A stretch of DNA of 64,000 bases. Origin: the human T2T-CHM13v2.0 reference genome, Homo sapiens. Below, piece by piece: positions 56,794 to 57,495 of the stretch. The notes under the pieces were generated by a model. The model searched no databases. It had not been told where the DNA came from and worked only from the letters and a program-made list of their open reading frames with translations. The first letter of the stretch is position 1, and each line of letters starts with the position of its first letter. Both the position numbers and the translations under genes were made by a program. The stretch lies in the NCBI RefSeq assembly GCF_009914755.1, contig NC_060931.1. One strand, given 5' to 3'.

Positions 56794-57495
56794 GGCTGGG
56801 TGTGGTGGCTCACGCCTGTAATCCTAGCACTTTGTGAGGCCAAGGTGGGCAGATCACCTGAGGTCAGGAGTTCGAGACCAGCCTGACCAACATGGAGAAA
56901 CCTCATCTCTACTAAAAATACAAAAAAAGCCGGTGACCTTGTGCAAATTACTTCTCCTGTCTGGGCCTCTATCTCTCATCTGTACGACAAGGAGGTGACT
57001 TCACGGCCTCCTCTTGCCCCCTCGGTTCCAGCAATTTCATTATTAAAGTCATCTTCGGAGAGAGGGATGGATGGCGTGTCTCCGGGCACCCAGTCTGATG
57101 TCGAGCCGTTACGGCTGGAATGTGTCTTTGCAGAGAGCCGCTGTCCTGCGTGGACGCCAGCTTTTCCCAGCAGTCATGCTGGGTGGGACAGTGGCACCGG
57201 GGGAGGTGACAGGACTGGGGCAATGTGGGGAATGAAGACTCAATCTTTCCATGTCTGCTCCTTCTGGAGGATCTCCTGGCTTCAGGGACTTCAGGGACTT
57301 TGGCTTGAAGACAGAAATGAAATTCTCATTTCATGCCTGTAATCTGGCACATGCCTGTAATCCCAGCTACTCGGGAGGCTGAGGCAGGAGAATCGCTTGA
57401 ACCCAGGAGGTGGAGATTACGTTGAGCCGAGATCGCGCCATTGCACTCCAGCCTGGGCAAGAAGAGCGAAACTCCATTTCAGAATAATAATAATG
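56794..57495 (+). mobile_element. AluSp/Sq split by a 0.4-kb insertion
   Basis: ctgaccaacatggagaaacc and aagagcgaaactcc diagnostics; left arm ends at 56931, right arm resumes at about 57345. Confidence 0.92.
56932..57328 (+). repeat. 397-bp duplicate (copy) of 58830-59226
   Basis: Colinear at a constant 1898-bp offset, about 19 substitutions by manual count, no indels. Confidence 0.97.

What the first reader, a model, noticed from the sequence alone, without database searches (positions are those of the whole stretch)
56925..57362. 397-bp neighbouring segment copied into the middle of an Alu, with microhomology, snap-back and direct-repeat junctions
Seen: 56932-57328 duplicates 58830-59226 (offset 1898, about 95% identical, many differences at CpGs) and sits between the two arms of an AluSp/Sq, replacing only about 6-8 nt of Alu. 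The left junction shares aaaagcc with the donor (56925-56931 and 58822-58828). The right junction has a 7-bp fold-back (atgaaat 57317-57323, loop tctc, atttcat 57328-57334) and then a 13-nt repeat catgcctgtaatc (57332-57344 and 57350-57362). There is no poly(A) and no TSD. Established: microhomology with templated inverted and direct inserts is the signature of polymerase theta end joining or MMBIR/FoSTeS template switching. Inference: one break in the Alu was repaired by three successive template switches and then fixed. The copied DNA still has many CpGs, so it may be a duplicated regulatory element.
Basis: partly seen in the sequence, partly recalled or inferred. Interest (0 to 1): 0.8.

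Follow-up and report, generated by a model that had tools for sequence, protein, structure and literature searches.

The report
Neighbouring DNA copied into an Alu
About 400 bases of single-copy human DNA were copied from 1.9 kb away into the middle of an Alu element when a chromosome break was repaired millions of years ago; it is a clean but ordinary example of a known kind of repair scar.

Summary
Window 56932-57328 matches 58830-59226 at 378 of 397 bases. The whole T2T-CHM13 genome holds only these two copies. The upstream copy sits between the two arms of one Alu and has no poly(A) and no target-site duplication.

Three details need correcting.
- **Left microhomology:** the 7-nt AAAAGCC may be donor DNA rather than Alu. 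None of 9 other Alus in the window has it. The junction can only be placed within 56921-56933, and the Alu lost 8 or 14 nt.
- **Snap-back:** it is not independent evidence. The donor already has a 7-bp palindrome at that spot. The copy equals the donor minus 4 nt.
- **Regulatory idea:** it gains nothing. CpG o/e is 0.45, and CpG positions differ about 8 times more often than other positions.

The 13-nt repeat is real, and its nearest exact template lies 6 nt away. Non-CpG divergence of 3.0% suggests an ape-lineage event. No primate orthologues, reads or epigenomic data were available. This is a new instance of a known kind, of low interest.

The parts
56782..56791 (+). Candidate left target-site duplication of the host Alu (TTCAGTCTTT)
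   Evidence: It matches 57497-57506 at 9 of 10 and abuts the Alu 5' end (read). Support is weak: the best local flank alignment had score 9, which 4.3% of random window places reached or exceeded.
56794..56920 (+). Host Alu, left arm (left monomer up to the A-rich linker)
   Evidence: It aligns column for column with 9 other window Alus, with 13 of 124 differences from their majority consensus.
56921..56933 (+). Left junction zone: bases that could be Alu or donor (A-run, AGCC, GG)
   Evidence: AAAAGCC equals donor 58822-58828, and GG is shared at offset 1898. All 9 other Alus have TTAGC here. There is a 1-nt gap against the donor (A58829).
56932..57328 (+). Inserted copy of the neighbouring segment (minimum extent; possibly 56925-57333)
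   Evidence: 378 of 397 identical to 58830-59226. These are the only two copies in 3.1 Gb.
57317..57334 (+). 7-bp inverted repeat with a 4-nt loop at the right end of the insert
   Evidence: DNA fold -6.5 kcal/mol, z -2.85. It is derivable from the donor's own palindrome by loss of 4 nt.
57332..57344 (+). 13-nt Alu-derived filler CATGCCTGTAATC
   Evidence: An exact repeat of 57350-57362, 6 nt downstream. 0.07 matches expected by chance in the window at up to one mismatch.
57345..57494 (+). Host Alu, right arm with a degenerate A-rich tail
   Evidence: It resumes at TGGC of the right monomer in the alignment with 9 other Alus, with 18 of 122 differences from their consensus.
57497..57506 (+). 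Candidate right target-site duplication of the host Alu (TTCAGTTTTT)
   Evidence: It lies 2 nt after the A-rich tail (57481-57494) and matches 56782-56791 at 9 of 10 (read). See for the weak statistics.
58822..59235 (+). Donor segment (secure core 58830-59226), single-copy, GC 54%
   Evidence: The flanks on both sides are not Alu halves, and the homology to the copy stops where the Alu arms begin.
59216..59235 (+). Donor's own palindrome TGAAATT / loop CTCAAT / AATTTCA, at the place where copying stopped
   Evidence: The fold is -3.7 kcal/mol, z -0.38.

Best explanation
An old Alu of the S type (subfamily assigned from recall, not tested) suffered a break in its A-rich middle linker in the germline of an ape ancestor.

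1. The 3' end on the left side annealed through a few bases (the A-run, AGCC or GG) to a single-copy segment 1.9 kb downstream on the same strand, probably on the sister chromatid.
2. It primed about 400 nt of DNA synthesis.
3. Synthesis stopped at or inside a small palindrome of the donor.
4. The new end paired through CA or CAT with the right side of the break, 6-8 nt inside it, and copied 11-13 nt of Alu.
5. It came off again and was finally joined to the right end at TGGCA.

The net result is a 397-406-nt dispersed duplication plus a 13-nt flank repeat, for the loss of 8-14 nt of Alu.

**Shown:** the anatomy, the copy number, the lack of retrotransposition marks and the junction sequences.
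**Inferred:** the order of steps, the break itself and the enzymes. The enzymes could be a microhomology-primed D-loop or MMBIR/FoSTeS-type switch for the long tract, with a Pol-theta-type aborted extension for the short one.

The element has no evident present function.
For: - **One split Alu:** its arms meet within 8-14 nt in Alu coordinates when aligned with 9 other Alus. A candidate TSD brackets the whole element.
- **The insert is a copy:** it is 95.2% identical to 58830-59226, in the same orientation.
- **Not a dispersed repeat:** a search of the 3.1-Gb assembly gave 3 matches, namely these two plus a 38-nt fragment on chromosome 22. A 961-nt query around the donor again found only the copy for the donor part. 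The other hits covered an embedded Alu fragment only.
- **Direction of copying:** homology ends exactly at the Alu arms on the upstream copy, while the downstream copy lies in continuous non-Alu sequence.
- **No L1 marks:** no poly(A) and no TSD around the insert.
- **Short homology at two joins, and a flank repeat:** the 13-nt filler's template lies 6 nt away. This matches the flank-templated inserts described for POLQ repair, which are mostly under 25 bp and map within 20 bp of the break, with reiterated priming and dissociation (PMC5068794, passages read). It also matches the complexity plus microhomology that define MMBIR (PMC2621351, abstract and passages read).
- **Indels sit at the junctions:** the only two indels between the copies (1 nt and 4 nt) lie within 10 nt of the two junctions. 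This fits error-prone synthesis near switch points (PMC5068794, passage on mismatches near the abort site).
- **Not an assembly artefact:** the 4.8% divergence between the copies rules out an assembly duplication.
Against: - No outgroup or pre-insertion allele was available, so the order of events and the exact break ends are inferred.
- A 400-nt tract copied from 1.9 kb away is far longer than typical POLQ inserts. In the C. elegans data read (PMC5068794), only 2-3% of inserts come from more than 1 kb away.
- The final join (…GTAATC | TGGCA…) shows no microhomology.
- The linker-donor homology is not statistically distinctive. When the linkers of 9 other Alus were aligned to the donor start, the scores were reached by 6-71% of random window places.
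- The 13-nt motif is generic Alu sequence. It is exact at 7 further window sites, and the host's own left arm has it with one CpG-type mismatch. Its template is therefore not certain.
- A tandem 18-nt duplication already present in the Alu before the break would remove the need for the third join. One of the 9 comparison Alus has such a 16-nt internal duplication.
Confidence: 0.75

Rival explanations
1. RNA or cDNA patch (class 2 templated sequence insertion). A local transcript of the donor region was reverse-transcribed, for example by L1 ORF2 acting without its endonuclease, and the cDNA was used to patch a double-strand break in the Alu.
For: Class 2 TSIPs are defined by having no TSD and no poly(A), together with microdeletion and microhomology at the junctions (PMC5110952, abstract and passages read). 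All of these are seen here. The left-side 3' end AAAAGCC could prime on an antisense transcript.
Against: - The described TSIs come from distant sites on many chromosomes (PMC5110952). Here the donor is 1.9 kb away in the same orientation, which favours direct DNA templating by proximity.
- No gene or transcript is annotated in the window (hub table).
- Nothing in the sequence, such as splicing or a tail, points to RNA.
Confidence: 0.08
2. Capture of a free double-stranded DNA fragment. A fragment copied or released from the donor region, for example from the sister chromatid or a small extrachromosomal circle, was ligated into the break by end joining.
For: The final join has no microhomology, and 8-14 nt were lost at the target. 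Both are features of classical end joining. The numt-capture precedent in primates (PMC2567098) was seen in the search listing only.
Against: - The donor is intact, so an extra copy had to be made first.
- The 13-nt flank repeat next to the insert needs templated synthesis at the break.
- The left join sits in shared bases.
Confidence: 0.1
3. The right-hand hairpin is a true snap-back. Copying ended at 59226, the new 3' end folded on itself and copied TTTCAT from ATGAAA, and this created the CAT homology used for the next join.
For: There is a perfect 7-bp stem with a 4-nt loop at the junction. It folds at -6.5 kcal/mol, z -2.85, and 0 of 200 shuffles folded as well. The donor's own hairpin is weaker, at z -0.38.
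Against: - The donor carries ATTTCA 4 nt further on (59230-59235), as part of its own 7-bp palindrome. The same bases therefore follow from copying on to 59235 with a 4-nt slip.
- The fold-back would have been primed by a single terminal base pair.
- Hairpins with a stem of 7 or more and a loop of 3-9 occur 1.4 times per kb in this window.
Confidence: 0.45
4. The segment is a dispersed repeat or mobile element that inserted into the Alu by its own means, or the duplication is an assembly artefact.
For: The first 38 nt or so have weak matches elsewhere: chromosome 22 at 92% over 38 nt and window 35696-35730 at 86%. From recall this looks like the core of the ancient MIR repeat.
Against: - Only two full copies exist in the genome.
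- There are no terminal repeats, TSD or tail.
- The copies differ at 19 of 397 bases with balanced CpG decay, which an assembly duplication would not show.
- Caveat: the genome search scores only the best candidates and skips very common words.
Confidence: 0.02

Closest known systems
MMBIR / FoSTeS template-switch rearrangements (Hastings, Ira and Lupski 2009, PMC2621351)
   Same: Several joins in one event, short homology at the joins, a template close by, a net duplication, and repeats (Alus in both orientations) around the endpoints.
   Different: The scale differs. The described events switch over tens to hundreds of kb and create CNVs. Here the jump is 1.9 kb, the tract is 0.4 kb, and replication returned to within 14 nt of its starting point. 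A collapsed fork cannot be shown.
Polymerase-theta end joining with flank-templated inserts (van Schendel et al. 2016, PMC5068794)
   Same: A 13-nt insert copied from the flank 6 nt away, 2-3 nt of priming homology, signs of repeated priming and release, and small slips near the abort points.
   Different: The main insert is about 400 nt and comes from 1.9 kb away, whereas typical inserts are under 25 bp. The evidence in that paper comes from C. elegans mutagenesis, not primate germline.
Class 2 templated sequence insertion polymorphisms (Onozawa and Aplan 2016, PMC5110952)
   Same: A non-tandem insert copied from elsewhere, with the donor intact, no TSD, no poly(A), a microdeletion and microhomology.
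   Different: The donor is local rather than distant. An RNA origin is not indicated. The 4.8% divergence suggests an old and probably fixed insertion rather than a polymorphism (not tested).
Short-range template switches in great-ape genomes (Loytynoja and Goldman 2017, PMC5453318; Walker et al. 2021, PMC7954356; abstracts in the search listings only)
   Same: Local template switching as a source of fixed complex mutations in ape lineages.
   Different: Those events are short and usually inverted, and they replace sequence in place. This one is long, direct and insertional.

Membership tests
MMBIR/FoSTeS template switching | Complex event with more than one novel join | tested here: met
   There are three joins: Alu to donor, donor to the 13-mer, and the 13-mer to Alu TGGCA. 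The alternative of a duplication already present in the Alu is not excluded.
MMBIR/FoSTeS template switching | Microhomology of about 2-5 bp at the joins (PMC2621351 abstract) | tested here: inconclusive
   The left join has 2-7 nt, depending on how the bases are assigned. The middle join has 2-3 nt (CA/CAT). The last join has 0 nt.
MMBIR/FoSTeS template switching | Origin at a collapsed or stalled replication fork | not testable with these tools
   Sequence alone cannot tell a one-ended break from a two-ended one.
Polymerase-theta mediated end joining | Templated insert copied from the immediate flank (within about 20 bp) | tested here: met
   The 13-mer at 57332-57344 has its template at 57350-57362, 6 nt away.
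Polymerase-theta mediated end joining | Inserts small (mostly under 25 bp) | tested here: not met
   The main insert is 397-406 nt and comes from 1898 nt away.
Polymerase-theta mediated end joining | Dependence on POLQ | not testable with these tools
   This is a fixed ancient event.
Class 1 TSIP / L1-mediated retro-insertion | TSD of at least 5 bp at both junctions, and a poly(A) tract | tested here: not met
   The insert ends in …TTCTCATTTCA, and no host bases are duplicated across it. The only repeat lies wholly on the right side.
Class 2 TSIP (DSB patch) | No TSD or poly(A), with microdeletion and microhomology at the junctions | tested here: met
Class 2 TSIP (DSB patch) | Donor at a distant site, derived from RNA; polymorphic in humans | tested here: not met
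   The donor is 1.9 kb away on the same strand. RNA origin and polymorphism were not testable here.
Dispersed repeat / transposable element | Many genomic copies with defined termini | tested here: not met
   There are 2 full copies in 3.1 Gb. No repeat library such as Dfam was available.
CpG island / regulatory element | CpG o/e of at least 0.6 with high GC over at least 200 bp (threshold recalled); slow CpG decay | tested here: not met
   o/e is 0.45 and 0.44 at GC 54%. One 200-bp sub-window of the copy reaches 0.71. CpG positions differ at 8 of 34 against 11 of 363 elsewhere. Chromatin data were not available.

The most novel reading that the evidence does not exclude
The 400-nt patch was templated by a local transcript, that is RNA- or cDNA-templated break repair in the primate germline, rather than by DNA. 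In that case this would be a fixed, datable fossil of RNA-templated repair using a cis transcript only 1.9 kb from the break.
Probability: 0.07. Interest if true: 0.5.

Novelty: new member of a known kind. Interest (0 to 1): 0.2.

Why it matters
The locus is a well-preserved natural example of a germline break repaired by copying a nearby template. All three joins are still readable, and the Alu acts as a built-in 'before' reference. Examples like this help calibrate how often small dispersed duplications in primate genomes come from template switching rather than from retrotransposition. This one also suggests that a long microhomology-primed tract and a short flank-templated insert can occur in the same repair event. 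It changes no current view, and no function is indicated.

Tried and rejected
- **Dispersed repeat:** rejected by two whole-genome searches.
- **Other copies in the window:** none beyond a 36-nt weak hit at 35696-35730.
- **Extended Alu-donor homeology at the left junction:** I aligned the linkers of 9 other Alus to the donor start. The scores were not distinctive, with null fractions of 0.06-0.71, so I dropped the idea of a 9-10-nt homeologous anneal.
- **67-nt Alu fragment at 58625-58691 as a second local copy, from the Alu at 59318-59377:** it is 93% identical to that neighbour but 97% identical to many Alus genome-wide, so rejected.
- **Excess of adjacent double substitutions as a mark of error-prone synthesis:** 2 adjacent pairs were seen among 19 substitutions. 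My own hand estimate, run in no call, expects about 0.9 by chance, so this is not significant.
- **Host-Alu TSD:** only weakly supported (4.3% of random places score as well).
- **Soft-masking in the window file:** none is present, as all bases are in one case, so the repeat annotation of the segment could not be read.
- **Specific locus in print:** I ran no literature search for it. The four searches were for mechanisms only, so I make no claim about whether this event has been described.

Full report
**What is there**

Reading 56500-59700 and a repeat scan show a direct repeat at offset 1898. A local alignment gives 56932-57328 = 58830-59226 without gaps.
- 378 of 397 bases are identical.
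- There are 19 substitutions, of which 16 are transitions.
- With one 1-nt gap (donor A58829 missing from the copy), the match runs on to 56925/58822 (AAAAGCC).
- 8 of the 19 differences lie at CpG positions, 4 decayed in each copy. There are 9 shared CpGs, 4 in the copy only and 4 in the donor only.

**Copy number**

The window lies in a 3.1-Gb, 24-contig assembly that the tools can search.
- The 397-nt query gave 3 matches: itself, the downstream copy (95%, E 1.4e-178), and a 38-nt stretch on contig 22 at 92%.
- A 961-nt query around the donor gave 60 matches from 974 first-look candidates, of which 40 were scored. Only one match, the upstream copy, covered the donor part. Apart from the query's own place, the rest covered query 280-356, an embedded Alu fragment.
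- Within the window, a sensitive BLAST found only a 36-nt, 86% hit at 35696-35730.

The segment is therefore single-copy DNA apart from its first 40 nt or so. From recall those resemble the MIR core, but no repeat library was available to test this. Caveat: the genome tool scores only the best candidates and skips very common words.

**The host**

I aligned 56775-57500 with 9 other Alus of the window, chosen from 40 BLAST hits of the two arms. The alignment shows two arms of one Alu on either side of a gap of about 400 columns.
- The left arm runs to the A-rich linker and the right arm resumes at TGGC of the right monomer.
- Against the majority consensus of the other nine, the arms differ at 13 of 124 and 18 of 122 positions. 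The other Alus differ at 8-14%, so this is an old Alu.
- A candidate target-site duplication, TTCAGTCTTT at 56782-56791 and TTCAGTTTTT at 57497-57506, sits directly before the Alu head and 2 nt after its degenerate A-rich tail. Statistically it is weak: 4.3% of random places score as well as the best flank alignment.

Since an Alu cannot insert as two halves around other DNA, the 400-nt segment entered after the Alu. Homology between the copies stops exactly at the Alu arms, while the downstream copy lies in continuous non-Alu sequence. The downstream copy is therefore the donor. This is logic from anatomy, as no outgroup was available.

**Left junction**

By chance such sharing is rare: 158 of 400000 random position pairs. 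However, all 9 comparison Alus read A-run + TTAGC at this place and none reads AAAAAAAGCC. Two readings are equally economical.
- The Alu kept AGCCGG and lost TT, which gives 8 nt lost in all.
- The Alu ends in its A-run and AAAGCC-GG is donor DNA with a 1-nt deletion, which gives 14 nt lost.

Secure microhomology is therefore 2-4 nt, not 7. A test for longer homeology between typical Alu linkers and the donor start was not distinctive.

**Right junction**

It folds well as DNA at -6.5 kcal/mol, z -2.85. But the donor has its own 7-bp palindrome at the same place: TGAAATT 59216-59222, loop CTCAAT, AATTTCA 59229-59235. Its fold is -3.7 kcal/mol, z -0.38.

The copy equals the donor read through to 59235 with AATA missing. 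A snap-back on the upstream arm and a copy of the downstream arm necessarily give the same bases, so the sequence cannot tell them apart. I put the two at roughly even odds. Either way, copying ended at a small palindrome. Such hairpins occur 1.4 times per kb in the window, so the coincidence is mild evidence that secondary structure helped to end the tract. That is inference.

**The 13-mer**

CATGCCTGTAATC is exact at 57332-57344 and again at 57350-57362. 0.07 matches (at up to one mismatch) are expected by chance in the window. It is a generic Alu motif, with 7 further exact sites in the window, and the host's left arm has it with one CpG-type mismatch. The nearest template is nevertheless 6 nt away.

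The join to the donor end shares CA or CAT. The final join to TGGCA shares nothing. A tandem 18-nt duplication already present in the Alu would also explain the 13-mer, and one of the nine comparison Alus has a 16-nt internal duplication. That would require the break to have fallen inside such a rare feature, so I consider it unlikely.

**Mechanism**

There is no poly(A), no TSD around the insert and an intact donor, which excludes L1-mediated insertion (class 1 in PMC5110952, passages read). The pattern has four parts:
- short homology at two joins;
- a long tract from a nearby template in the same orientation;
- a short flank-templated repeat;
- both indels within 10 nt of the junctions.

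This fits microhomology-primed template switching as defined for MMBIR/FoSTeS (PMC2621351, abstract and passages read). The short insert fits the reiterated prime-extend-release behaviour described for POLQ, where inserts are mostly under 25 bp, 37-44% map within 20 bp of the break, 2-3% come from more than 1 kb away, and errors cluster near the abort point (PMC5068794, passages read). MMB-TI work also notes microhomeology at initiation and a possible POLQ share (PMC8421209, passages read). Which polymerase made which part cannot be read from the sequence.

**Age**

Outside CpG positions the copies differ at 11 of 363 sites, which is 3.0%, with a Poisson 95% range of 1.5-5.4%. Using recalled primate divergence figures, this is about the human-orangutan level. 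The range runs from the African-ape ancestor to the catarrhine ancestor. Gene conversion between the copies would make the event look younger.

**Regulatory idea**

- CpG o/e is 0.45 and 0.44 at 54% GC, against 0.21 for the window. Only one 200-bp sub-window of the copy reaches 0.71.
- CpG positions differ at 8 of 34 (24%) against 3.0% elsewhere. That is about an eight-fold excess, close to the roughly ten-fold hypermutability of methylated CpG (recalled). This argues that both copies have been methylated in the germline.
- The hub table lists no functional element at either copy.

The idea is not excluded, but nothing supports it.

**Not done**

I had no primate orthologues, no sequencing reads, no population data, no Dfam annotation and no chromatin or methylation data. 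The literature searches were for mechanisms, not for this locus.

**Verdict**

This is an ordinary, well-preserved instance of a known repair scar.

Noticed in passing
window 58625-58691: A 67-nt internal Alu fragment (antisense, from the 3' part of the right monomer) sits in otherwise non-Alu GC-rich DNA, 140 nt upstream of the donor. It has no tail and no obvious TSD. It is 97% identical to many Alus genome-wide and 93% identical to the neighbouring Alu at 59318-59377. It could be another break-repair filler or the remnant of a twice-truncated Alu.
   Followed up: partly
window 59350-59384 (Alu at 59291-59612, minus strand): This Alu carries an internal 16-nt tandem duplication. It appears as a 16-column insertion relative to 9 other Alus and as family D6.
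   Followed up: no
window 55664-55734 versus 57345-57415: The first 71 nt of the host Alu's right arm are 94% complementary to a truncated antisense Alu 1.6 kb upstream. Other Alu pairs here are 74-90% alike. The host Alu thus lies between inverted Alus on both sides (55664-55875, 56100-56210, 59291-59612, 60145-60444). Such an arrangement could favour fork stalling or breakage, but that is speculation.
   Followed up: no
window 58400-59226: There is a GC-rich block (57% GC, CpG o/e 0.42-0.45) between AT-rich flanks (34% GC). The donor is its right half. Its nature is unknown, and it has no paralogue in the genome apart from the copy.
   Followed up: partly
window 56932-56970 and 58830-58868; L003: The first 38 nt or so of the segment have weak matches on chromosome 22 (92% over 38 nt) and at window 35696-35730 (86%). 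From recall this resembles the conserved core of the MIR SINE. It was not tested against a repeat library.
   Followed up: no
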